A DNA stretch of 47,401 nt from a virus. The stretch is from positions 1 to 47,401 of IMG/VR virus record IMGVR_UViG_3300037467_000548; one strand, 5' to 3'. The notes under the pieces are model-generated. The model did no database searches. It was not told the DNA's origin and saw nothing but the letters and a program-made list of their open reading frames with translations. Both the position numbers and the translations under genes were made by a program. Shown piece after piece: positions 1-47,401 of the stretch. The number at the start of each line of letters is the position of its first letter. Positions within the stretch are counted from its first letter, which is position 1.

Positions 1-127
1 GCAGCAGACCCGCAAGGCGTTGGAGCCGGCCGCGAAAGAATTCATCAAGTCGCTGGCCGACGTCGATATCGCGTCGGAGTTCAAGACGGGGTTTCTCGGC
101 GGTACGCCGTCGCTCGGCATCACGCCA
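1..127. repeat. Terminal overlap: identical to 47275-47401 (circular or circularly permuted molecule, assembly overlap)
   Basis: Base-by-base comparison of both window ends shows a 127/127 match, so the unit length is 47274 bp. Confidence 0.95.
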
Positions 128-7129: not shown

Positions 7130-7852
7130 ATGGGCGACACTTTTCGCAAGACAGATGATCCATTAGAGATATCTGAATTGGCCGCCCGCTCGAAGTCAGA
7201 ATTAGCGGCTATCTATTTCAACAGATCGGCTGCGCGGGTATCGATGAAGTGGCATCACTACCTGGATACCTATGATCGGTACTTGTCTCGCTATCGCGAC
7301 AAGCAGCCTCGGTTCTTAGAGATCGGTATCGCGGACGGCGGCTCCTTCAACCTCTGGCGCCCGTACTTCGGGTCGGCAGCAACCTTGTTCGGCATCGACA
7401 TAAAACCTGGCAGCGTTGCCAAGGTGGAAGCTCTTGGACTCGACTGCCATGCTCGGGTGGGTAGTCAGGCCGATCCTGAATTTTTAAGGTCTGTGGTCGA
7501 TGAAATGGGCGGCGTCGATATTGTGATCGATGACGGAAGCCACGTCGCCGAACATCAGGTCGCCAGCTTCAGAACGCTCTTCCCGCTGCTGAACGATGGC
7601 GGGGTCTACATTTGCGAGGATCTTCACACCGCTTACTGGGGCGGCGAGTGGCATGGCGGCCTTAAGCAGCCGGGCACCTTCATTGAACTGACCAAGGACA
7701 TCATCGATAGCCTGCACCAGTGGTATGCGCCGGTCGCCAATGATCTTTCAGACATGAATCTTCACCGGAGCATTCCGGCGATCCACATTCACGACAGCAT
7801 GGTTGTGATCGAGAAGGCGAAGGTAGAGCCGCCTATTTTGATCATCAAATAG
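7130..7852 (+). CDS. Class I SAM-dependent methyltransferase, sugar/polysaccharide O-methyltransferase-like (CmcI/TylF-like)
   Basis: Motifs KWHHYLDTYDRYLSRYR, FLEIGIADGGSFNLW, LFGIDI and VIDDGSHVAEHQ are present. The segment looks more AT-rich than its surroundings. Confidence 0.7.
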   Translation: MGDTFRKTDDPLEISELAARSKSELAAIYFNRSAARVSMKWHHYLDTYDRYLSRYRDKQPRFLEIGIADGGSFNLWRPYFGSAATLFGIDIKPGSVAKVEALGLDCHARVGSQADPEFLRSVVDEMGGVDIVIDDGSHVAEHQVASFRTLFPLLNDGGVYICEDLHTAYWGGEWHGGLKQPGTFIELTKDIIDSLHQWYAPVANDLSDMNLHRSIPAIHIHDSMVVIEKAKVEPPILIIK

Positions 7853-8012
7853 TCGCCTCGTCGGTCGTTTTCGGCAACCACGTCGCGCCCGTGATGAAGC
7901 CGGGCAATTCGGTACCATTGGCAAGATGCTCGGCAACGTGCTTCGCGTAGTCTTCTGACCAGCCTTCGCTGATCAGTTTCTCTTTCCAGTACGTGGCTGA
8001 GCGCTTTTCCAT
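7845..8012 (-). CDS. Small hypothetical protein (55 aa), convergent with and overlapping the methyltransferase 3' end
   Basis: Starts ATG 8012 (MEKRSATYWKEKLISEGW...). Third-position GC is high by manual count and the composition is natural. Confidence 0.45.
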   Translation of the reverse strand: MEKRSATYWKEKLISEGWSEDYAKHVAEHLANGTELPGFITGATWLPKTTDEATI

Positions 8013-9011: not shown

Positions 9012-9394
9012 TGGGCGCTATCATCGGATGGCTTCTCACGACGCAAGTTGGGCGCGCCGTCGGGGTACTTGGGCTATGCGCGCTGCTCTTCTTCGGTGGG
9101 CGCCTGTGGCTTTCCTGGCATGACGAGAGCGTGCGTGACGCGGCCCGAGCCGGATACGTTCTCCAGTCTCAGGCCGAAGCCGCAGAGGCAAAGCTTGCCG
9201 AAGTCCAGCGCCAGGTCGCCGCCGGTCAGATCGTGATCGCCTCCTACCAGGAAATTCTGAAGAACGCGCGAGCAAAGGACGCCGCCGATGATCTCCAATT
9301 CGCCAAGGACCGGAAGGACTTCGAGGCAAAGCTGGCTGCTGCTGGTCGGTCTTGCCAGCTTGATCAGTCTGACCTCGACTGGTTGTCAAAGTGA
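9008..9394 (+). CDS. i-spanin (Rz-like)
   Basis: ATGATG start, an N-terminal transmembrane segment (GAIIGWLLTTQVGRAVGVLGLCALLFFGG) and then a coiled-coil-like region. Confidence 0.65.
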   Translation: MMGAIIGWLLTTQVGRAVGVLGLCALLFFGGRLWLSWHDESVRDAARAGYVLQSQAEAAEAKLAEVQRQVAAGQIVIASYQEILKNARAKDAADDLQFAKDRKDFEAKLAAAGRSCQLDQSDLDWLSK

Positions 9395-9620
9395 TGCCGC
9401 TTTGAAGGCTGCAGCGAAGGACAAGGGCTTGGCTGCAGCGCGCGTTACGCTTCCGCCGCTGCCAACTGACTGCCGAGATCTCGAACCCCATGCAGCGGCC
9501 GCCTCTGGCGACGAAGTGCGCGCTGTCCTCAAGGCCGAGCGGCGTCAACTCGACAAGGCGAACGCGCGTGTCACTCGTTGCGCCGAAAACTACGACCGGA
9601 CCGCAAAGGCGCTGAAGTGA
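9288..9620 (+). CDS. o-spanin (Rz1-like lipoprotein), overlapped architecture
   Basis: It starts inside the i-spanin gene in another frame. The signal WLLLVGLASLISLTSTGC ends in Cys. Confidence 0.6.
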   Translation: MISNSPRTGRTSRQSWLLLVGLASLISLTSTGCQSDAALKAAAKDKGLAAARVTLPPLPTDCRDLEPHAAAASGDEVRAVLKAERRQLDKANARVTRCAENYDRTAKALK

Positions 9621-12346: not shown

Positions 12347-12727
12347 CTATAGTAGCAGGGAAGGGGCACTCAGCTCGGCGATCAGCGAAAGCAGAGCGTC
12401 GGATTTCCGAAACCATTCCCCATGGAGTCTGTCGGCAATGAAGCGCTGATGCAGTTCCTTTTCCATGCTCGCCTTGCCGGGAATTACAGCGAGAAGCCGA
12501 AGGCGATATGGGCAGCACATCTGAAGCTTAACTAGCCGCCGCTGTGCGTCGGCGGCTATGCCGATCTTGATGTGACGTTCAGCGCACTCGGTCTCGATGA
12601 AGTAGAGATCGGTCGCCGGAGCGATATCCTTATCCAGTCGCGCGGCGGGCAGGCGTCGGCCTGACCATGCCCGATCTGGCTTCGGGATGTTTTCAACTTC
12701 GGCCATGCGCTGCTTGAAATAACTCAT
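12347..12727 (-). CDS. T5orf172 / GIY-YIG-like domain protein
   Basis: Motifs are YFIE..HIKIGIA, RLVKLQ, LRLLAVIPG, E.ELHQRF and HGEWF. A GAGG RBS precedes ATG 12727. Confidence 0.7.
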   Translation of the reverse strand: MSYFKQRMAEVENIPKPDRAWSGRRLPAARLDKDIAPATDLYFIETECAERHIKIGIAADAQRRLVKLQMCCPYRLRLLAVIPGKASMEKELHQRFIADRLHGEWFRKSDALLSLIAELSAPSLLL

Positions 12728-12770
12728 ATTGACCTCGCGGAATAATGCGGAACGATACGAGAACAATACT

Positions 12771-12864: not shown

Positions 12865-12897
12865 GGATAGACAGTCGGTTAGACAATCGGTTAGACA
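12865..12897. repeat. Three phased direct repeats (12-nt period): ggATAGACAgtc GGTTAGACAatc GGTTAGACAc; arm-type site candidates
   Basis: Read directly from the sequence. The repeats overlap the 3' end of the gene downstream of int. Confidence 0.6.
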
Positions 12898-13427
12898 CTG
12901 CCGCTCTCCGCACGGAAATAGCGCATCCGCCGAACTAGGAGCCTAAGTGGCTCCTCGCCCCAATTGTTCATCGCCAGATTCACGATCTCGCAGACGAGTC
13001 TGACATTCGAACGGACATAGCCGAGTTTCGGAATGATCCGATCTATGCTTGGTCGGAAAGCCTGCTTCTCTCGCGGTGAACCGTCTTTCGTCACATGAAA
13101 TGGGATGCCGCTAACCGCGCAACGATAGTCCTGGTCAAGCAGCATACGCTCGAAGTCTTCCTCTGTAAGGTCGAATGGTACGTCAGCGCGCGTCGCCCGC
13201 GTCCTCGCGCGTTTCAGCGCCGGCTTCAAATGTCGGTTGAGCATTGTCTCCCGGTCGCGGCCCTCTAGCGGCGAGCCGTTTGCTGCTTTGTCATAGGCGT
13301 CATCAAAGCATTGTTCGCCAGGATGCCCCGGCAAGTAGCAAATACGTCCATGCTTCCGGTACCGCCAGCGCGTTGTGCCGTGACGGTCTGTCGTCGTGGT
13401 GACGTTGGGATATCCGTCTGCTTTCAT
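12891..13427 (-). CDS. Integrase-arm-domain paralog fused to a degenerate HNH/endonuclease VII-like domain
   Basis: N-terminal residues 5-51 align ungapped with Int residues 3-49 at 24/47 identities (GYP.V....DRHGTTR.R.R..G...YLP..PG...F..AY..A..G). The C-terminus reads CAVSG...PSIDRIIPKLGYVRSNVRLVCEIVNLAMNNW. The ATG lies 1 nt after the int stop. Confidence 0.7.
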   Translation of the reverse strand: MKADGYPNVTTTTDRHGTTRWRYRKHGRICYLPGHPGEQCFDDAYDKAANGSPLEGRDRETMLNRHLKPALKRARTRATRADVPFDLTEEDFERMLLDQDYRCAVSGIPFHVTKDGSPREKQAFRPSIDRIIPKLGYVRSNVRLVCEIVNLAMNNWGEEPLRLLVRRMRYFRAESGSV

Positions 13428-13428
13428 G

Positions 13429-14493
13429 TCACGCGAACCGCTTCACCAGCTTGGTCATGCCATCCACCGCAAGCCGCTCCTGTTCCGCTTCCTTGCTGTA
13501 CAATTCCACGTGGTCCAAGTCGTCGTGACCGAGGATCCCGGCCGACTGTTTTGCAGTCGCGCCTTCCTCGGCGAGATATTTTCCCAGCGTCTTTCGCAGT
13601 CCGTGAAATGTGCAGCCAGGCTGCATGCCGGCCAGCTTCGTCCAATGCGCCATCATGCCCGTGAGCGACTTCTCCGAAAACGAATTGCCATAGGCGTTCG
13701 ATATTACCGTGTCCGTGCGTCGCGGGATGTCGATCAGTGCCGCCTTGAGCATCGGCAGCATGAGCAAACGCAGCACCTTGTCTGTCTTCTCCTGCCGCAC
13801 GGTGATCCTGTCCCGGTCGAAGTCCACATCGGTCCAGAGCTGCGCCGCAACGTCGCCGCGACGGTTCCCCGCCCATAGAGCCAGCGCATAGGCTGCCCGA
13901 GGCATCGTCCCGGTGGGCCACCGCTTTTCGAAGGTCGCGCGCTCCTTCTCCGTCCATGCCCGCCAGCCGCCATATTCCGGCCGCCAACCCATCTTCAGCG
14001 ACGGGTCGTGCTCGATCCAATCTTGATCCATGGCCTCGGTTATAAGCCGGCGAATTGAGGTTAGCATGTGCTTCGCCTTGTGCGGCGTCTCGCCATGTTC
14101 GTTCAGGATCATCTTGACGTGCCGGCGCCGGAGATCCGATACAGGAATTCTGCCCCATGTTGTCGGGTCGTCCTCGTCCACGCGAGAGGCTAGGAATTCC
14201 TTGGTCAGGCGCTCGTTCTTGTATTTCGTCGCCTCGTCCAGCTTGCGCCACTCGACGCCCTTCTGAACCAGCCGCCAAGCATCGGCAAAGGTCTTGGATA
14301 TGATGGCCTTCGGATGCGCAACGATTGCCGCTAGGCGCGGTTCCCGACCTTCCAACGCTGCGCTGTAGGCTTCCTCGAACTCGGGGTGCCCTGGTTCCTG
14401 CGGCAGATAGATCGACTTTCCCGCGCGTCGAAAGCGATAGCGGGTCGTGCCGTGCCGGTCCTCGAACGGTGAGACGTAGGGGTAGCCTTCCAT
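13429..14493 (-). CDS. int: Tyrosine integrase
   Basis: Catalytic-type motifs are GNRRGDV (Arg), HGLRKT (H-x-x-R), LGH and ELYSKE (Tyr). Confidence 0.9.
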   Translation of the reverse strand: MEGYPYVSPFEDRHGTTRYRFRRAGKSIYLPQEPGHPEFEEAYSAALEGREPRLAAIVAHPKAIISKTFADAWRLVQKGVEWRKLDEATKYKNERLTKEFLASRVDEDDPTTWGRIPVSDLRRRHVKMILNEHGETPHKAKHMLTSIRRLITEAMDQDWIEHDPSLKMGWRPEYGGWRAWTEKERATFEKRWPTGTMPRAAYALALWAGNRRGDVAAQLWTDVDFDRDRITVRQEKTDKVLRLLMLPMLKAALIDIPRRTDTVISNAYGNSFSEKSLTGMMAHWTKLAGMQPGCTFHGLRKTLGKYLAEEGATAKQSAGILGHDDLDHVELYSKEAEQERLAVDGMTKLVKRFA

Positions 14494-14501
14494 GAGCGCA
14501 T

Positions 14502-14753
14502 CTAAGCCGCACGGTTGCGCCCCGACAAGATGCGATCGATCTTGTTACCGTCATCCCCAGGCAGATCGGTGAAGTAGGCGTCGAGCTGAATCCGATCCCA
14601 AACTGTCCGGCTGTTGGCGCGCTTCGGCCTCGGCATCCGGCCGTCTGACACCATCTCATCAAACAGCGTCGGGCCCACGCCGATGTATCTGGCGGCTTCC
14701 TCGCGTGACAGGCCGCGCGGCGGATATGGGAGCGTGTCGTGTGGCTTACTCAA
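14502..14753 (-). CDS. xis: Excisionase / AlpA-like HTH protein
   Basis: The HTH is GLSREEAARYIGVGPTLFDEMV. A TTG start has an AGGAG RBS 9 nt upstream and overlaps the upstream stop. The gene lies directly upstream of int. Confidence 0.65.
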   Translation of the reverse strand: MSKPHDTLPYPPRGLSREEAARYIGVGPTLFDEMVSDGRMPRPKRANSRTVWDRIQLDAYFTDLPGDDGNKIDRILSGRNRAA

Positions 14754-15022
14754 GGCTGCGACTCCTGGGCGGGGCGGACGAGAGCGGCATCCCATGTTTC
14801 CTGAGCAGATCGCAGCGACAGCAGATGCGTGGCATCGATATGCGACAGGCTCATGCGGCTGATATTGAATGCCGCGTTTGCCAAGGGCTTCCCAGCTTGC
14901 AAGATGCGCTCGTTCCTCGCCTCCAGTTCCGCTATATGCTCTAGAAGGCGGCGGATATCGCTGCGCTGGAATCTGCAGCGACCGGCGCGCATCTGCTCTA
15001 TAAGAGAGGAGATGTCAGCCAT
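14750..15022 (-). CDS. Hypothetical protein (90 aa), paralog of 16498..16845
   Basis: Both share the C-terminal motif LANAAFNI...L.SLRSAQETWDA. Confidence 0.6.
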   Translation of the reverse strand: MADISSLIEQMRAGRCRFQRSDIRRLLEHIAELEARNERILQAGKPLANAAFNISRMSLSHIDATHLLSLRSAQETWDAALVRPAQESQP

Positions 15023-15233
15023 TACCGCCTCCGACTATGGTGGTCTTGCTCCAGCGGTTGCCCTCGTCCTTCGTGAAGCCAGCGCGGCTCAAGATTTCTT
15101 CACAGGTCCAATAGGCTTCCCAGCCCGCTTTGTAGGCTGGGTGAGCATCGGGGAATAGCGGCTCTCCATGCTGCGCATCGAAGAAGCCGGCGTGATAGCC
15201 TGGATCGTGCCGCCAATTGATGTCAGCGCTCAT
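15015..15233 (-). CDS. Hypothetical protein (72 aa)
   Basis: Third-position GC is high. Its ATG overlaps the tnpB TGA (ATGA). Confidence 0.6.
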   Translation of the reverse strand: MSADINWRHDPGYHAGFFDAQHGEPLFPDAHPAYKAGWEAYWTCEEILSRAGFTKDEGNRWSKTTIVGGGNG

Positions 15234-15420
15234 CGTTCTGCCTCATGAGACAGGAAGCGGGCTGCGGCTCTCGGAAGCAGCCGCCTTGCCTCGGATAGTG
15301 GCTGCTCAGCAGCTTCACGTTTCACCGACAGGCTACGCAGCGTCAGCTTTCGCCGACGGGCGGGACTCCCATCTCCACGCGCTGTAACGGCTCTATCCGC
15401 CGCCATTCGTTCAAGATTGC
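15210..15420 (-). ncRNA. Candidate TnpB omega-RNA (reRNA) scaffold overlapping the tnpB 3' end; boundaries unknown
   Basis: About 60 Arg/Ala-rich codons follow NAARNL with lowered third-position GC. Hairpins include GUCGGC-GAAA-GCUGAC, GCUGC-UGA-GCAGC and GGCUGC..GCAGCC. Confidence 0.3.
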
Positions 15421-16498
15421 GTGCCGCGTTCTCGTCGCGGTCGCACATAAAGCCGCAGTCCTCGCAATTGAAGGTGCGGTCAGCAAGCGTGAGCTTTTCC
15501 TTCACGCTGCCACAGCAAGAACATGTCTTGCTGGAGGGATAGAAACGATCTGCCTCGACCAAGGCATTTGCCTTGTAGGCTAGCTGGCGCCGAATTTCGT
15601 AGAAGCCGACATCCGCGATATGCCGGGCCAAGCGACCGTTTCGAAGTAGATTGCGAACGGCGATGGTCTCGACGCCGATGCGTTCAGCCATGCCAGCTAT
15701 AGTAGCCGTCGCGTTGTGCTGGAAATTCGTTCGGATATCAGCGATCCGTTTTTGAAGTCGCGCCACCTTTGCCCGCGCTCGCCGCCTGCGCCCGGAACCA
15801 ACTTGGCGCCGGTGGAGGTTTCTGTTGGCCCTCCTTAGCTTGCGACGCTCCACATTCAGCCGTTCAATTAGATTGCTGCCTAAATCTGCTGATGCTCCAG
15901 CGCAGGCCACTTTGATCGGGGTCTTGATGCCGAGATCGACGCCAGCCGCTTTATTCTGGCGCGGCTGACTCTCTACGTTCGGTATGTCGAAGCTGATTGA
16001 GGCATACCATTTCCCAGCCTTCCGGCTGACTACCGCTCTGATGATCCTTGCGTCTGGCCAACGGCAAGCACGGCTGAGGCTTACCGCGCCGACCTTCATC
16101 AGCTTCAGCTTACCACCAGCAACTGCGCATTGATTGGCGAAGGCGACAACGAAGCTTTCCTTGGCTTTGCCCTTCGCCTTGAATCGCGGATATCTCGCTT
16201 GGCCGGTCCGGTAAGCCTCATAGGCTTGCGCTACAGCGAAGATGGCATGTTCTGGAACGAGTTTGGAAATATCAGTAATCCACGGCCACCTTTCGCGCTT
16301 GATGGCGTTGAACTGCCGCTGGAGCGCGTAGTTTGAAGGGAACGGGGATTGTTTGCCAGTCTGCCACCACTCGATAGCCTGGCGCTTCCACTCGTCTAGA
16401 GCCCAATTGTAGGCCATGCGCGCGATGCCGGCCGCACGAGCAAAGTATTCGGCCTGCGCCTTCGTCGGGTGCAATTGAAAAACTTGAGCCCGATGCAT
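15230..16498 (-). CDS. tnpB: TnpB (IS200/IS605-family OrfB, RNA-guided endonuclease); no tnpA present
   Basis: The N-terminus is MHRAQVFQLHPTKAQAEYF..RMAYNWAL. RuvC motifs are GVDLGIK, GVETIAVRNL and CDRDENAARNL. The zinc ribbon is CSCCG..CEDCG. Confidence 0.9.
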   Translation of the reverse strand: MHRAQVFQLHPTKAQAEYFARAAGIARMAYNWALDEWKRQAIEWWQTGKQSPFPSNYALQRQFNAIKRERWPWITDISKLVPEHAIFAVAQAYEAYRTGQARYPRFKAKGKAKESFVVAFANQCAVAGGKLKLMKVGAVSLSRACRWPDARIIRAVVSRKAGKWYASISFDIPNVESQPRQNKAAGVDLGIKTPIKVACAGASADLGSNLIERLNVERRKLRRANRNLHRRQVGSGRRRRARAKVARLQKRIADIRTNFQHNATATIAGMAERIGVETIAVRNLLRNGRLARHIADVGFYEIRRQLAYKANALVEADRFYPSSKTCSCCGSVKEKLTLADRTFNCEDCGFMCDRDENAARNLERMAADRAVTARGDGSPARRRKLTLRSLSVKREAAEQPLSEARRLLPRAAARFLSHEAER

Positions 16499-16845
16499 CA
16501 GCGCACCTTCGCCACGACGGCGTCCCATGCCTCTTGCGCTTCCTTTAGCGCGCGAAGTGAGTCCGCATCAACTTGACCGCGCTGGTAGATATTATAGGCC
16601 GCATTTGCCAACATAGCGCCAGGAGACTTCAGCGCCCTTGCCTCTGCAAGGGAGGACTCGGCGGCCTCACAGCGGGCAACGGCTTCGGAGGCAGTTAGAG
16701 CGGCTCGGGCCAGCCCATACCAATGTGGTTTGTGTTGCGACGGCCACAGCGCTTCGATCTTCTCCGGGCTAAGGTGTGGCTCGTTGGCCTTGGCAAAGAT
16801 GGCCTTCGCAGCGCGTTCCATCATAGCTTCAGTGGCATCAACCAT
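16498..16845 (-). CDS. Hypothetical protein (115 aa), paralog of 14750..15022
   Basis: C-terminal motif LANAAYNI...LRALKEAQEAWDA. Its TGA overlaps the tnpB ATG by 1 nt. Confidence 0.6.
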   Translation of the reverse strand: MVDATEAMMERAAKAIFAKANEPHLSPEKIEALWPSQHKPHWYGLARAALTASEAVARCEAAESSLAEARALKSPGAMLANAAYNIYQRGQVDADSLRALKEAQEAWDAVVAKVR

Positions 16846-25811: not shown

Positions 25812-26531
25812 TCACCCTCGCCACTGGAACCAAGCCACGACGCGCCCATAAACACGAACGTCTTCCCGCCGCAGTTCGTAGTTCGAATAACGGGGGTTGT
25901 CGGACATCACCATGATCTTGTCGGTCCTAGGGACCATCTGCAGCCGCTTGATCGTAAGCCCGTCCCCATAGTCGCAAGCGTAGATGTCTTCAGGCGAGGG
26001 GACGTTATGTGTCATGTCCACAAAAACGTAGGAGCCTGATGTCAGGGTTGGCTCCATGCTGTCACCCTCTACCGGCAGAGAGTACACTTGGGGCATATTG
26101 CGCCAGCCGGCCTTTACCGCCGGGGGGAATGACCAGAAGCCCGAAACGTGATCCGCATAGATCTGGCCGCCTTCGGATACCTCGACGCCTTCGGGGCTTC
26201 CGAGCCCGAGCCCGCCACGAATATTTAGATTTGCGACGTCGCCCGACCCGGTTACAGGAACCGTAACCGGGTCGCTATCGTCGACTGCTTCCTCCGGCGG
26301 GGCGTCAGGGTCGAAACTGTCAACCAGTCGGCCGCGTCCGCCTTCGCGCTGCTCAAGAATTTTTGTGATGGTAGCTACGTGGCGCTCAAGAAGCTCTTGC
26401 GGCGAACCTCGTGTAACGAACTGCTGAACATAGGCATGATTCTTACCGATCGCTTCCGAAAGCTCTTTATATTCAACGAGCTTTGCGTCGACCGCGCGCT
26501 TTATCCGCTTCCGCAATTCATCCATCGACAT
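25812..26531 (-). CDS. CI-like repressor (N-terminal HTH + S24 LexA-type autopeptidase)
   Basis: The HTH is LSEAIGKNHAYVQQFV and the peptidase motif is VEGDSMEPTL ... TIKRL. The start is ATG 26531, with TTG 26567 as an alternative. Confidence 0.85.
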   Translation of the reverse strand: MSMDELRKRIKRAVDAKLVEYKELSEAIGKNHAYVQQFVTRGSPQELLERHVATITKILEQREGGRGRLVDSFDPDAPPEEAVDDSDPVTVPVTGSGDVANLNIRGGLGLGSPEGVEVSEGGQIYADHVSGFWSFPPAVKAGWRNMPQVYSLPVEGDSMEPTLTSGSYVFVDMTHNVPSPEDIYACDYGDGLTIKRLQMVPRTDKIMVMSDNPRYSNYELRREDVRVYGRVVAWFQWRG

Positions 26532-26550
26532 TCGGTCTGCATCACAAATT

Positions 26551-26616
26551 CCTATCCTATCGTCCAATAGGATTTTGCCTCTTGATTGGTAGGGAATTTC
26601 CTATTATAAATAGGGA
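26551..26616. promoter_or_regulatory. OR operator cluster: CCTAT-N6-ATAGG (26556-71), TAGGGAATTTCCTAT (26590-604), CCTAT-N5-ATAGG (26600-14)
   Basis: These lie in the divergent repressor/cro intergenic region and share half-sites with OL. Confidence 0.7.
26582..26610 (+). promoter_or_regulatory. PR-like promoter TTGATT-N17-TATAAA, 6 nt before ATG 26617 (leaderless cro-like mRNA predicted)
   Basis: Hexamers and spacing were read directly. The operator 15-mer occupies the spacer. Confidence 0.6.
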
Positions 26617-45406: not shown

Positions 45407-47401
45407 ATGGCGACAATTCCTCTGCAGGTTGCCACCAAGTCGCTGGATACTGGTTCGACCGTTTCCTATCCTCAAGGCGGCGAGATCGGTCGTGCCATGC
45501 AGCAGGCCGGCGGTGAACTGACGCAGCTCGCCGACTATGCGCAGCAGCGCCAGTCTCAAATGGACCGCTTCAAGCGGATCGCGGTCGAGAACGAGTTTGA
45601 CCAGGCCGTCGCCAACCAGTCGGAGGAATTCGCCCGCAATGCGCCTGCCGACGGTTCCGGCATCCATGACGGCATCGTTGGCCAGATAGACCCGACGACC
45701 GGCGCTGTGACCAAGCCGGGCCTGTTCGATAACCTCGCCACCCAGTTCCGGGATCGCGTGCCGGCAAGCCAGCGCGGCTATTTCGACGCCACGCTTTCAG
45801 CGAAGCGGCTTTCGGTCTCGGGCTCGGCCGCATCGACGCAGTACGCACAGGAGCAGAAATACGCGACGCTCCAAACGTCGAAGATACAGGACGGTCTGCT
45901 AAACTCTATCCTGCAGTCCGATCCAGGAGATACTGCTTCCTTCGACGCGTACAAGGAGAAGGGGCGAACCGTTATCGAGGCGAGCCCGCTTGCGCCTTTG
46001 GCGAAACAGGCCGCGCTCGAAGCATGGGATCAGCAGGCACCAAAGGCGCTCGCTCAAGCGATCACCGCGCGTGATCCGGGCAAACTGCGCGCGATGCTCG
46101 GCATGGCGCCGAAAGAGGCCACTGGCGGCAATGCCGTTGATGAAGTGACCAACCGGATCATCGGGGTAGAGAGCGGTGGAAACCCCAACGCGAAAAACCC
46201 CAACTCCTCCGCGTCTGGCGTCGGGCAATTTCTGGACTCGACGTGGGTAGCGACCGTCCGCCAGCATCGTCCGGACATCGCCGCTGGCAAGAGTGCTGCA
46301 GAGATCATTGCGCTGAAGGGCGACCGCGCTCTCGGGCGCGAGATGACCCGAGCATACCAGCAGGACAATGCGGACTATCTGACCAACCGCGGCCTGCCGA
46401 CGACGCCCGGCAACATCTACCTTGCTCACTTCCTCGGACCGGCTGGCGCCACCGAAGTGCTGAAGGCCGATCCGAGCACGCCCGTTGTCAACGTCGTGGG
46501 TCAGGAAGTCGTCAACGCGAACCCCTTCCTGAAAGGCATGTCTGCAGCCGATACGGCGGCATGGGCGGCCAAGAAGATGGGGGGTGCGGCTTCTGCCTCG
46601 AAGCCCGATCCTCGCTTCGCCAACCTTGCGCCGGAAGATCGCTTGTCGCTTGCCAATGCGGATGACGTGGCCTTTCGCCAGCAGCAGGCGGCTGACCGCG
46701 CCCAAGCCAACGCTGACTATTCCGCCTACAAAGACTCTATGGAACTCGGCATCGTTCAGGGCAAGGTCTCCGACGAGGGCCTGATCTCCAACGACACGGT
46801 GCTGAAGGACGGCGACAAGGCGACGCTGATCCGCTCACTGCGTGCGCAGAACGAGACGATCAACCAGACGCAGGCCGATCTGTCGGCGCTCGCCAGCGGC
46901 GGCTTCACGGTCGACCCCTATGCCACCAAGGACCGAACGCGAGTTGACAACGTCTACGCCGAGTCTCTGAAGCACGTCCCCCAAGACAAACAGGGCGCGG
47001 TGACGACAGAGATCATCCGGCAGACCGGTGTGGTTCCCCAGCCAGTCGTCAACAACATGCGGCAAGGGCTTGCCAGCCAAGATCCGGCACAGGTCGCCGC
47101 CGCCGCACAGACCGCACAGCGGATATCGCAGTTGAACCCGGCTGCTCTCGGGCGCCGCGACGGTGGCAGTGAGGTGCAGAAGTCTGCCGATGACTTCACG
47201 CACATGGTCAACGACCTGAACATGTCGCCGACGGACGCCGCGAAGCGCCTGATCGATCTGCGCGACCCGAAGGCGCAGCAGACCCGCAAGGCGTTGGAGC
47301 CGGCCGCGAAAGAATTCATCAAGTCGCTGGCCGACGTCGATATCGCGTCGGAGTTCAAGACGGGGTTTCTCGGCGGTACGCCGTCGCTCGGCATCACGCC
47401 A
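45407..47401 (+). CDS. Internal virion protein with a lytic transglycosylase (SLT) domain; continues at base 1 across the circular junction
   Basis: The motif NRIIGVESGGNPNAKNPNSSASGVGQFLDSTW lies at about 46151-46247. No stop occurs before the window end. The gene is absent from the ORF track because it is open-ended. Confidence 0.8.
   Translation, partial: MATIPLQVATKSLDTGSTVSYPQGGEIGRAMQQAGGELTQLADYAQQRQSQMDRFKRIAVENEFDQAVANQSEEFARNAPADGSGIHDGIVGQIDPTTGAVTKPGLFDNLATQFRDRVPASQRGYFDATLSAKRLSVSGSAASTQYAQEQKYATLQTSKIQDGLLNSILQSDPGDTASFDAYKEKGRTVIEASPLAPLAKQAALEAWDQQAPKALAQAITARDPGKLRAMLGMAPKEATGGNAVDEVTNRIIGVESGGNPNAKNPNSSASGVGQFLDSTWVATVRQHRPDIAAGKSAAEIIALKGDRALGREMTRAYQQDNADYLTNRGLPTTPGNIYLAHFLGPAGATEVLKADPSTPVVNVVGQEVVNANPFLKGMSAADTAAWAAKKMGGAASASKPDPRFANLAPEDRLSLANADDVAFRQQQAADRAQANADYSAYKDSMELGIVQGKVSDEGLISNDTVLKDGDKATLIRSLRAQNETINQTQADLSALASGGFTVDPYATKDRTRVDNVYAESLKHVPQDKQGAVTTEIIRQTGVVPQPVVNNMRQGLASQDPAQVAAAAQTAQRISQLNPAALGRRDGGSEVQKSADDFTHMVNDLNMSPTDAAKRLIDLRDPKAQQTRKALEPAAKEFIKSLADVDIASEFKTGFLGGTPSLGITP
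47275..47401. repeat. Second copy of the 127-bp terminal overlap
   Basis: Identical to bases 1-127. Confidence 0.95.

What the first reader, a model, noticed from the sequence alone, without database searches (positions are those of the whole stretch)
15015..16845. Catalytically intact, tnpA-less TnpB embedded in the early operon with an RNA-like 3' extension and paralogous flanks
**Catalytic signatures.** TnpB signatures are complete: RuvC D/E/D contexts GVDLG, VETIAV and DRDENAARNL, plus zinc ribbon CSCCG..CEDCG. No TnpA exists anywhere on the circle.

**Embedding.** The gene is not in an intergenic landing pad. Its ATG (16498-16496) overlaps the TGA of the upstream gene. Its TGA (15232-15230) overlaps the ATG of the downstream 72-aa gene.

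**3' extension.** The last roughly 60 codons after NAARNL are Arg/Ala-rich, with third-position GC near 50 percent by my count, against roughly 70 percent in the next gene. They contain several hairpins, including a GNRA-capped GUCGGC-GAAA-GCUGAC. This is what an omega-RNA scaffold overlapping the ORF end would look like.

**Flanks.** The unit (tnpB plus orf72) sits between two paralogous genes that share LANAA[YF]NI...AQE.WDA.

**Inference.** If the guide is the sequence just 3' of the scaffold, it would match the 5' end of orf72. That is the locus as it exists in TnpB-free relatives, so the arrangement would be an RNA-guided homing or competition device carried by a temperate phage. Alternatively, it is a domesticated nuclease used in the early programme.
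Basis: partly seen in the sequence, partly recalled or inferred. Interest (0 to 1): 0.75.

Follow-up and report, generated by a model that had tools for sequence, protein, structure and literature searches.

The report
Phage-resident TnpB nuclease with guide RNA
A temperate phage carries, inside its early operon, an intact RNA-guided DNA-cutting enzyme (TnpB) with its guide-RNA scaffold but no transposase; it belongs to a lineage found here only in phages, which probably uses it to cut and convert related phages that lack it.

Summary
**Observation.** It holds. Window 15230-16498(-) encodes a 422-aa TnpB with the RuvC D188/E277/D355 triad and the zinc ribbon. No transposase is found among 79 candidate ORFs of this circular phage. 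The start and stop codons overlap the neighbouring genes.

**Guide RNA scaffold.** The 3' end of the gene doubles as an omega-RNA. Thirteen related loci give 96.5% paired cells and 10 pairs with compensatory changes. Synonymous change is suppressed from about 15530 to 15314.

The scaffold lies further upstream than proposed. It ends in a variable hairpin (15301-15313) and a terminus, CACTATCC (15293-15300). The guide therefore starts near 15292, about 40-60 nt before orf72, not in orf72.

**Lineage.**
- The nearest relatives (51-71% identity) were examined at twelve further loci with context. All sit co-directionally in temperate-phage operons without TnpA.
- The next clade (38-42% identity) is standard IS607, with a serine-recombinase TnpA and the same RNA.

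**Target evidence.** In one relative (L015) the predicted guide matches 17/17 nt of an uninterrupted site in a related phage. That site is a 25-nt island found in six IMG/VR phage contigs, which supports RNA-guided homing or competition.

**Limits.** The TAM, the window's own empty site and the cleavage activity are untested.

The parts
15230..16498 (-). tnpB coding sequence (422 aa from the family-conserved MHRAQ start). RuvC D188 is at nt 15935-15937, E277 at 15668-15670, D355 at 15434-15436, and the zinc ribbon C326-C348 at 15455-15523.
   Evidence: Pfam domains. PDB sequence matches to ISDra2 TnpB. Invariant residues in 29 homologues. pN 0.2-0.35 against saturated pS 0.7-0.9, omega about 0.1.
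16499..16515 (-). Short leader before the ATG, holding a Shine-Dalgarno-like GAAGGTG (16504-16510) and the TGA of the upstream ORF. It probably contains the left end of the element. The exact boundary is unresolved, somewhere 5-16 nt upstream of the ATG.
   Evidence: In L015 the left flank stops matching the empty site 15 nt upstream of the ATG. In L098 it stops about 5 nt upstream. Upstream sequence is unrelated between loci.
15314..15530 (-). Conserved omega-RNA scaffold core, overlapping the last ~70 conserved codons of tnpB. The covariance-model match covers 15314-15457.
   Evidence: Synonymous-codon identity rises from 0.25-0.50 to 0.54-0.84 from codon ~324. The structure has 96.5% paired cells and 10 pairs with compensatory changes; 0 of 500 shuffles reach this and slid controls give 23-43%. 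The model finds a single hit of 169.5 bits in the window, with the next best at 10 bits.
15341..15358 (-). GNRA-capped hairpin C-GUCGGC-GAAA-GCUGAC-G inside the scaffold.
   Evidence: Six of ten pairs in this helix change on both sides across loci, for example GUCGGC/GCUGAC, GUAAGC/GCUUAC, CGAAGC/GCUUCG and AGCCGC/GCGGCU.
15301..15313 (-). Variable terminal hairpin GCUGC-UGA-GCAGC, directly after the scaffold core.
   Evidence: A stem-loop of 13-45 nt occupies this position in all 13 loci, with different sequences. Nine of 13 have a stem of at least 4 bp starting at +1, against a 15% random rate (P about 2e-5). The sister IS607 clade has a longer stem-loop here.
15293..15300 (-). Right-end terminus CACTATCC (family consensus C[A/T]AT[T]C). 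Homology between loci stops here.
   Evidence: L015 and L206 are homologous exactly up to ...GGAAACTAT[T/C]C and unrelated beyond. The same motif occurs in L013, L098, L177 and L207, with RCAATT in L016, L017 and L180. The L015 right flank resumes the empty-site sequence right after ACTATTC.
15273..15292 (-). Predicted guide, GAGGCAAGGCGGCUGCUUCC (start uncertain by 1-2 nt). It lies inside the tnpB ORF tail, 40-60 nt upstream of the orf72 ATG.
   Evidence: The position follows from the end of cross-locus homology. There is no second copy in the window and no match in IMG/VR. Function is inferred, not shown.
16498..16845 (-). Upstream 115-aa ORF, whose stop overlaps the tnpB start. It may be the 5' part of a gene interrupted by the element.
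   Evidence: ORF and overlap. Paralogue of the 90-aa ORF. Only one weak homologue elsewhere, P0124. By analogy with L015, where the element splits a gene.
15015..15233 (-). orf72, the downstream neighbour. It is flank, not part of the element.
   Evidence: It lies beyond the end of homology. Its single homologue, P0122, sits in an unrelated context.
14750..15022 (-). 90-aa ORF, paralogous to the C-terminal 40 aa of the 115-aa ORF.
   Evidence: BLASTP 45% identity, E=6e-9.

Best explanation
**What it is**
- The locus is a compact TnpB/omega-RNA cassette derived from an IS607-family insertion sequence.
- It has lost the serine-recombinase TnpA and nearly all of the left end.
- It survives as a translationally coupled gene in the leftward early operon of a temperate phage of an alphaproteobacterium-like host.

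**How it most likely works**
- TnpB is translated from the operon transcript.
- The 3' part of its own mRNA (about 15530 to 15293) folds into the omega-RNA scaffold.
- The 16-20 nt that follow (from about 15292) act as the guide.
- The guide is whatever DNA lies just right of the element. The complex should therefore cut a genome that carries this sequence next to a TAM rather than next to the element's right end, for example a co-infecting or resident related phage without the insertion.
- Break repair by the phage's own recombination genes, using the TnpB-bearing genome as template, would copy the cassette or exclude the rival allele. This is the role free-standing homing endonucleases play in T-even phages.

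**Shown**
- An intact nuclease under purifying selection.
- A covarying RNA.
- The right-end boundary.
- Restriction to phage operons in every locus examined, with no TnpA.
- In one relative, a guide that matches an uninterrupted site in other phages.

**Inferred**
- RNA processing, the TAM, cleavage and homing.
For: **Identity**
- TnpB domains and the catalytic triad are present.

**Selection**
- Synonymous sites are saturated while pN stays at 0.2-0.35 (omega about 0.1).
- pS falls to 0.03-0.34 in the RNA overlap.

**Omega-RNA**
- Covariation is strong.
- The model gives a single strong hit in the window.
- It also hits the 3' end of the tnpB genes searched in the IS607 sister clade.

**Origin**
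- The sister clade has a MerR-HTH plus Resolvase TnpA immediately upstream of tnpB.

**Context**
- The window and 12 further close-clade loci were examined. All are co-directional in temperate-phage operons; ten of the 12 carry a RecT-, ERF- or Rad52-type recombinase and/or an integrase nearby.
- None has TnpA.

**Element ends**
- L015 and L206 share only the cassette and have unrelated flanks.

**Movement between phages**
- The related phages L015 and L098 carry the cassette at different places.

**Target**
- L015's flanks are contiguous in L098 (14 + 17 nt, with a 2-nt overlap).
- Its predicted guide matches 17/17 nt there.
- The 25-nt site is exact in six IMG/VR phage contigs.

**Transcription**
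- No promoter-like site was found, and terminator-like matches did not exceed the shuffled expectation, so polycistronic expression is plausible.

**Prior knowledge**
- TnpB processing its own mRNA into omega-RNA is described in PMC10278001.
- TnpA-independent spread by TnpB-driven homing is discussed in PMC13565253.
Against: - No empty site could be found for the window itself. Integrase-related phages lack the 115-aa ORF, orf72 and tnpB altogether. The 115-aa ORF and orf72 have almost no homologues. The guide has no match in IMG/VR.
- No TAM consensus is visible upstream of the element across loci. Cleavage of an 'empty' allele therefore cannot be predicted.
- Homing explains spread to the same site, not the many different sites seen.
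- The single validated insertion (L015) shows a 2-nt repeat at both junctions. That hints at serine-recombinase transposition rather than homing as the way new sites are reached.
- Rfam has no model for this RNA.
- The single-sequence fold is not unusually stable (z = -1.6). The RNA rests on covariation only.
- No expression or activity data exist.
Confidence: 0.6

Rival explanations
1. It is a non-autonomous IS607 derivative that still transposes, mobilised in trans by TnpA from full IS607 copies in the host. TnpB plays only its usual transposon-maintenance role, and the phage location is incidental.
For: - The sister clade is IS607 with the same omega-RNA.
- The cassette has sharp ends and lies in unrelated contexts.
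- The L015 insertion is flanked by the same dinucleotide CT on both sides, as a 2-bp serine-recombinase crossover would leave.
- The first bases of the L015 and L016 leader (GGGGAT..) faintly resemble the start of the sister clade's left end (GGGTTTGAAC / GGGCTTCAAC).
Against: - Only 5-15 nt lie between flank and ATG, which is too short to hold the TnpA-binding repeats of an IS607 left end.
- Synonymous conservation is not raised at the 5' end of tnpB, so no hidden cis site is there.
- There are no multi-copy or near-identical copies. Members are 51-71% identical with saturated synonymous sites.
- Every locus examined is in a phage and none in ordinary chromosomal sites.
Confidence: 0.2
2. It is a domesticated phage weapon or regulator. 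The nuclease serves the phage rather than itself, for example in superinfection exclusion or destruction of resident prophages. Alternatively, omega-RNA processing cuts the early transcript just upstream of orf72, xis and int and so tunes their expression.
For: - The cassette has been maintained for a long time without a transposase and under purifying selection.
- Its place in the operon recurs, often a few genes upstream of xis/int.
- Tight translational coupling is kept on both sides. In the window and seven of the 12 other loci the tnpB stop overlaps the next start.
- TnpB cleaves its own mRNA (PMC10278001).
Against: - The guides differ in every locus and are simply the local flank. In known domesticated TnpB relatives (TldR, PMC10705468) the guide is a dedicated sequence aimed at a fixed host target.
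- Position varies even between close relatives, and one member sits in the rightward replication/late region.
- Competition between phages is also what the homing model predicts, so this rival overlaps the main explanation.
Confidence: 0.15
3. It is an inert relic of an old IS607 insertion, carried along passively.
For: There is no transposase, no recognisable left end, a single copy and no detectable target for the window's guide.
Against: - The ORF is intact.
- The catalytic and zinc-binding residues are invariant across 29 diverged members.
- Omega is about 0.1 with saturated synonymous sites.
- Compensatory changes keep the RNA helices.
Confidence: 0.05

Closest known systems
IS607-family TnpB with omega-RNA/reRNA (for example ISFba1, PMC11061315; IS607 elements in PMC8612924)
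   Same: - The domain architecture is the same.
- The nearest TnpA-bearing relatives (38-42% identity) are IS607 elements.
- Their RNA is recognised by the model built from this clade.
- The RNA has a stem-loop that varies in sequence and length between loci, then a short conserved terminus just before the guide. ISFba1 likewise has a dispensable stem next to its guide.
   Different: - There is no TnpA, and no left end beyond a 5-15 nt leader.
- The element is single-copy and found here only in phages.
- The scaffold overlaps the coding sequence, whereas the ISFba1 reRNA lies wholly outside it.
- Rfam families, including RAGATH-18, do not match.
- The terminus is CTAT(T)C instead of GRAACGG.
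ISDra2 TnpB (IS200/IS605; PDB 8EXA, 8H1J)
   Same: - It is the best natural structural homologue by sequence (E=2e-42).
- The motifs that by my recollection hold its RuvC triad align.
- The omega-RNA is derived from the 3' end of tnpB plus the right end, with the guide taken from the flank.
   Different: - Identity is only about 30%.
- ISDra2 pairs with a Y1 TnpA and hairpin ends.
- Its TAM, TTGAT, cannot be transferred to this element.
IS1341-type solo tnpB elements
   Same: Both carry tnpB only, with no transposase.
   Different: - As I recall it, IS1341-type elements keep IS200/IS605-type left and right ends and are usually multi-copy in chromosomes.
- Here the left end is reduced to a ribosome-binding leader, and the gene is fused into a phage operon.
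Free-standing homing endonuclease genes of T-even phages (seg, mob)
   Same: - Both are nuclease genes wedged between or into phage genes.
- Both are present or absent between close relatives.
- Both are expressed with the phage programme.
- Both are predicted to cut the allele that lacks them (concept reviewed in PMC13565253).
   Different: - Target recognition would be by RNA, not protein.
- There is no sequence relationship.
- Homing is not demonstrated here.
TldR, prophage-encoded TnpB-like nuclease-dead repressors (PMC10705468)
   Same: Both are TnpB descendants that live in temperate phages without a transposase.
   Different: - TldR has lost the RuvC residues and carries a dedicated guide against a host promoter.
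- Here the triad is intact and the guide is the local flank.

Membership tests
TnpB (OMEGA RNA-guided nuclease) | Domain architecture: N-terminal HTH/REC, OrfB_IS605 RuvC core and a zinc-ribbon TNB domain | tested here: met
   Pfam PF12323, PF01385 and PF07282 all score above their curated cut-offs. Full-length match to ISDra2 TnpB structures.
TnpB (OMEGA RNA-guided nuclease) | Intact RuvC D-E-D catalytic triad | tested here: met
   D188, E277 and D355 align with the ISDra2 motifs that by my recollection hold D191, E278 and D361. They are invariant in 29 homologues.
TnpB (OMEGA RNA-guided nuclease) | Structured omega-RNA encoded at or overlapping the 3' end of tnpB | tested here: met
   96.5% paired cells and 10 compensatory pairs, with 0 of 500 shuffles reaching this. 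Synonymous suppression from 15530 to 15314.
TnpB (OMEGA RNA-guided nuclease) | Guide is the DNA immediately beyond the right end | tested here: inconclusive
   The end of homology is mapped to about 15293. In L015 that flank equals the empty-site sequence of related phages. No RNA data exist.
TnpB (OMEGA RNA-guided nuclease) | TAM-dependent, RNA-guided DNA cleavage | not testable with these tools
   This needs a TAM-library or in vitro cleavage assay. The only TAM candidate is CCGCT, from the L015/L098 pair.
IS607 insertion sequence | Serine-recombinase TnpA (MerR-HTH plus Resolvase) encoded upstream of tnpB | tested here: not met
   No Resolvase hit in 79 window ORFs, nor in the gene tables of the close-clade loci. 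It is present in the sister clade.
IS607 insertion sequence | Left end with conserved TnpA-binding sequence | tested here: not met
   Sequence upstream of the ATG is unrelated between loci. The L015 left end is 15 nt. No synonymous suppression at the 5' end of tnpB.
IS607 insertion sequence | Conserved right end, and insertion with a shared crossover dinucleotide and no longer duplication | tested here: inconclusive
   A conserved terminus is present. There is one validated insertion with a CT repeat. L016 instead has a 9-nt flanking repeat, P about 0.005 before multiple testing.
IS607 insertion sequence | Multiple copies or recent transposition | tested here: not met
   There is a single RNA-model hit in the window. 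Each clade protein sits on 1-2 contigs, and members are 51-71% identical.
TldR (nuclease-dead TnpB-like repressor) | Loss of RuvC catalytic residues and a guide aimed at a host promoter | tested here: not met
   The triad is intact and invariant. Guides differ between loci and equal the local flank.
Free-standing phage homing endonuclease (functional class) | Presence/absence polymorphism between related phages, with the intact target in genomes that lack the gene | tested here: met
   This holds for the relative L015. Its intact target lies in L098, and the 25-nt island recurs in five further IMG/VR contigs. It is not shown for the window's own copy.
Free-standing phage homing endonuclease (functional class) | Cleavage of the empty allele and conversion in mixed infection | not testable with these tools
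   This requires phage crosses.

The most novel reading that the evidence does not exclude
This is a phage-adapted, 'operon-compatible' RNA-guided homing cassette.

- **Ends.** An IS607 TnpB/omega-RNA has been trimmed to ATG-to-right-end. Its leader and right-end region supply a ribosome-binding site, and in some members also a stop for the interrupted upstream frame and an in-frame restart. It can therefore sit inside phage genes without polar effects.
- **Example.** In L015 the cassette splits a gene. The leader ends the N-terminal half at TGATG. An ATGA inside the RNA region restarts the C-terminal half in frame.
- **Consequence.** Its guides aim at nucleotide-invariant linker islands shared by many phages. 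RNA-guided breaks, repaired by the phage's own recombinases, would then spread the cassette and create mosaic joints.
Probability: 0.25. Interest if true: 0.8.

Novelty: new variant of a known kind. Interest (0 to 1): 0.55.

Why it matters
**What is already ordinary.** TnpB is the ancestor of Cas12, and its natural role is understood mainly as helping a transposon survive its own excision. Solo tnpB genes, and tnpB genes in phages, are common and are usually dismissed as IS remnants.

**What differs here.** A whole lineage has persisted long enough to saturate synonymous sites without any transposase. In every locus examined it sits inside a temperate-phage operon, and both the nuclease and its guide RNA are kept by selection.

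**Natural test case.** At least one member has a guide that matches an intact site in related phages. This offers a natural system for testing TnpA-independent, RNA-guided homing between viral genomes. A 2026 review (PMC13565253) treats that process as theoretical for phages.

**Practical points.** The lineage also provides compact nucleases with a defined scaffold. It suggests a possible link between RNA-guided breaks and phage mosaicism.

Tried and rejected
**Rfam**
- Rfam was searched at gathering thresholds and then at E<=10 over 15000-15800. No omega-RNA, RAGATH-18 or HEARO family matched.

**Searches that returned nothing useful**
- The same scan of viral contigs found nothing. The window itself is not in IMG/VR.

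**Search for the window's empty site**
- Phages with related integrases (L182-L199) share xis and int but not the 90-aa ORF, orf72, tnpB or the 115-aa ORF.
- orf72 has one homologue, on a 998-nt contig with an unrelated upstream region.
- A reconstructed '115-aa ORF plus tail' query found only itself and one weak 91-aa hit.
- The guide 18-mer is absent from IMG/VR.

**Empty sites in relatives**
- The Mesorhizobium prophage L013 has relatives that share sequence only from the next gene's ATG onward.

**TGATG as the TAM: rejected**
- I first read the recurring TGATG at the start codon as a TAM.
- It occurs in only about 5 of 13 loci and coincides with stop/start overlap, so it reflects translational coupling.

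**Guide start at 15313: rejected**
- I first placed the guide directly after the conserved ...GTGAA.
- Comparison with the sister clade and the L015/L206 pair showed that a variable hairpin and a conserved terminus come first.

**Flanking direct repeats as target duplications: not supported**
- Only L016 has a notable repeat, a 9-mer, and the others are at chance level.

**In-frame reconstruction of the window's interrupted gene: ambiguous**
- Several left-junction choices are possible, so no claim is made.

**Thermodynamic stability: uninformative**
- The single-sequence fold has z = -1.6.
Full report
**1. The observation**

The ORF at 15230-16498 on the minus strand encodes a 422-aa protein.
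- It carries Pfam HTH_OrfB_IS605, OrfB_IS605 and Cas12f1-like_TNB domains.
- It matches the solved ISDra2 TnpB structures at E=2e-42 over residues 3-367.
- GVDLG, GVETI and DRDENAA align with the ISDra2 motifs that by my recollection hold the RuvC residues D191, E278 and D361.
- JGI called the gene from an ATG at 16528 (432 aa). All 28 close homologues conserve the MHRAQ start at 16498.

The embedding is as described.
- The start codon shares one base with the TGA of the upstream 115-aa ORF.
- The stop overlaps the ATG of orf72 as ATGA.

The other observational claims also hold.
- GC3 is 0.52 in the last 60 codons, 0.64 before that and 0.67 in orf72.
- The two flanking ORFs are 45% identical over their C-terminal 40 residues (E=6e-9).
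- None of 79 candidate ORFs hits a Y1 or serine transposase family.

The window is a circular temperate-phage genome.
- Its first 127 nt equal its last 127 nt.
- It has an S24 repressor at 25812-26567.
- A leftward early operon runs down to xis and int (13429-14493).
- It also encodes terminase, portal and capsid proteins.

**2. The RNA**

Across ten, then thirteen, related loci the last ~110 nt up to ...AAGCGTGAA are almost identical in nucleotide sequence, although the proteins are only 51-71% identical.

RNAalifold and explicit pair counts support a multi-helix structure.
- 96.5% of cells are paired.
- 10 pairs change on both sides.
- 0 of 500 shuffles reach the observed values.
- Slid controls give 23-43% pairing.

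Synonymous-codon identity rises from 0.25-0.50 to 0.54-0.84 from codon ~324 (nt ~15530) to 15314. Pairwise pS drops from 0.7-0.9 to 0.03-0.34 in this overlap. The scaffold therefore starts upstream of the RuvC-III motif, not after NAARNL.

A covariance model of the last 144 nt finds one hit in the window (169.5 bits, next best 10 bits).

No Rfam family matches. The single-sequence fold is not unusually stable. The case rests on covariation.

**3. Where the element ends and the guide begins**

After the conserved core every locus has a stem-loop of variable sequence and length.
- In the window it is GCUGC-UGA-GCAGC at 15301-15313.
- Nine of 13 loci have a stem of at least 4 bp starting at +1, against a 15% random rate (P about 2e-5).
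- A short conserved terminus follows: C[A/T]AT[T]C, which is CACTATCC at 15293-15300 in the window.

Three independent comparisons fix this as the right end.
- In the sister clade the homologous RNA continues as a longer stem-loop and ends in GRAACGG. Two copies of one IS in different places diverge right after it.
- L015 and L206 are homologous from tnpB exactly to ...GGAAACTAT[T/C]C, and unrelated on both sides.
- The right flank of L015 resumes the sequence of an uninterrupted site immediately after ACTATTC.

The window's guide therefore starts at about 15292 (GAGGCAAGGCGGCUGCUUCC). It lies within the tail of the tnpB ORF, 40-60 nt upstream of orf72.

**4. Relatives and context**

The protein search shows a discrete clade of 28 homologues at 51-71% identity, then a drop to 44% or less.

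Twelve further clade loci with context were examined. Ten gave DNA, one was read from IMG/VR DNA (L098), and one gave a gene table only.
- In all, tnpB is co-directional inside a temperate-phage operon.
- Ten of the 12 carry a RecT-, ERF- or Rad52-type recombinase and/or an integrase nearby.
- One (L207) lies between replication and late genes.
- None has a transposase.
- Including the window, the tnpB stop overlaps the next ORF's start in eight of the thirteen.

Synonymous sites between members are saturated while pN is 0.2-0.35 (omega about 0.1). The catalytic and zinc-binding residues are invariant. This is long-term purifying selection without TnpA.

The next clade (38-42% identity) has a MerR-HTH plus Resolvase gene abutting the tnpB start. 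It is therefore IS607, and its 3' ends are recognised by the RNA model at 23-83 bits.

The phage clade is thus an IS607 derivative that has lost TnpA and almost all of the left end.

**5. Evidence on mobility and target**

L015 and L098 are related phages, with neighbouring genes 85-98% identical in DNA. They carry the cassette at different positions.

The 17 nt that follow L015's right end (CTCTCCTCTCCGGTAGG) occur in L098. There they are contiguous with the 14 nt that precede L015's leader (ATCCGCTCCGCTCT), overlapping by CT, inside an intact 254-aa gene.

In L015 the cassette therefore splits that gene.
- A 15-nt leader (TCTGGGGATCGAATG) provides a ribosome-binding site.
- The same leader provides the stop of the N-terminal half (TGATG).
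- An ATGA inside the RNA's variable region restarts translation in frame with the C-terminal half.

The uninterrupted 25-mer ATCCGCTCCGCTCTCTCCTCTCCGG is exact in six IMG/VR phage contigs.
- Sequences on both sides of it differ between these contigs.
- None has tnpB in the fetched range.
- L015's predicted guide matches 17/17 nt in five of them.

This is what the homing or competition model requires, and it yields a TAM candidate, CCGCT. The CT at both junctions is also what a serine-recombinase crossover would leave.

**6. What could not be shown for the window itself**

- Integrase relatives lack the whole region from the 115-aa ORF to the 90-aa ORF.
- orf72 and the 115-aa ORF have almost no homologues.
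- The guide has no other match in the window or in IMG/VR.
- The left boundary lies within 5-16 nt of the ATG, but several junctions are possible.
- The tnpB frame reads through the right end for about 21 codons and stops exactly at the ATGA with orf72. That is compatible with insertion into the 3' part of the 115-aa gene, but it is not proven.
- No TAM consensus appears upstream of the element across loci.

**7. Verdict**

The feature is real and correctly identified as TnpB with an overlapping omega-RNA. That part is ordinary.

What goes beyond the ordinary is the lineage.
- It derives from IS607 and has no transposase.
- It is trimmed to a ribosome-binding leader, tnpB and RNA.
- It is embedded in phage operons with translational coupling.
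- It has been maintained by selection over long times.
- In one member the guide is aimed at a conserved site in related phages.

The most likely function is RNA-guided homing or competition between phages (confidence about 0.6 for the overall account). Identity is near certain, but the mechanism is inferred. How new sites are reached remains open: trans-acting IS607 TnpA or phage mosaic recombination.

I file it as a new variant of a known kind.

Noticed in passing
L098 1454-1478; L210 5944-5968(-); L211 255-279(-); L212 5061-5085(-); L213 13725-13749; L216 4285-4309(-): An exact 25-nt island, ATCCGCTCCGCTCTCTCCTCTCCGG (coding IRSALSSP), sits inside a phage gene family. The sequence on both sides differs between phages, so this is a nucleotide-invariant linker at a mosaic joint. 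It is the insertion site and predicted target of the L015 cassette.
   Followed up: partly
L015 7986-9246, with flanking ORFs 7504-8001 and 9212-9589: The cassette splits a gene that is intact in L098 (1064-1828). The element's leader ends the N-terminal half. An ATGA inside the omega-RNA region restarts the C-terminal half in frame, so 12 codons of the downstream ORF are element-encoded. L206 has the same element-encoded N-terminus on an unrelated downstream ORF.
   Followed up: partly
L098 6251-6472: A 73-aa ORF lies directly after the tnpB cassette and is absent from the related phage L015. By eye it has a signal-peptide-like and lipobox-like N-terminus (..SVVACGQ..). It parallels 'tnpB plus a small ORF' in the window but is not homologous to orf72.
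   Followed up: no
window 1-127 and 47275-47401: The first 127 nt are identical to the last 127 nt. The window is a circularly closed assembly of about 47,274 bp.
   Followed up: yes
window 12347-12766(-); L177 9548-10081; L208 10094-10654: A T5orf172/MUG113-domain gene lies just beyond the integrase in the window and in two other tnpB-bearing phages.
   Followed up: no
window 12891-13427(-): The first ~55 residues of this 178-aa ORF are 49% identical to the N-terminus of the adjacent integrase. Its C-terminus looks HNH-like by eye, but it has no Pfam hit.
   Followed up: no
L016 7982-7990 and 9204-9212 (approx.): A 9-nt direct repeat, ATGACGAAG, flanks the L016 cassette on both sides (chance about 0.005 per locus, 12 loci tested). 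It is not seen at the other loci.
   Followed up: partly
window 16498-16528(-): The public gene call starts tnpB at an upstream ATG (432 aa), overlapping the 115-aa ORF by 31 nt. The family-conserved start is at 16498.
   Followed up: yes
L116 1494-1637 and 5679-5799; L115 1-67 and 4106-4234: Two omega-RNA model hits occur per contig in the IS607 sister clade (a 119-nt exact repeat in L116). This suggests two IS copies, or an orphan RNA, on one viral contig.
   Followed up: no
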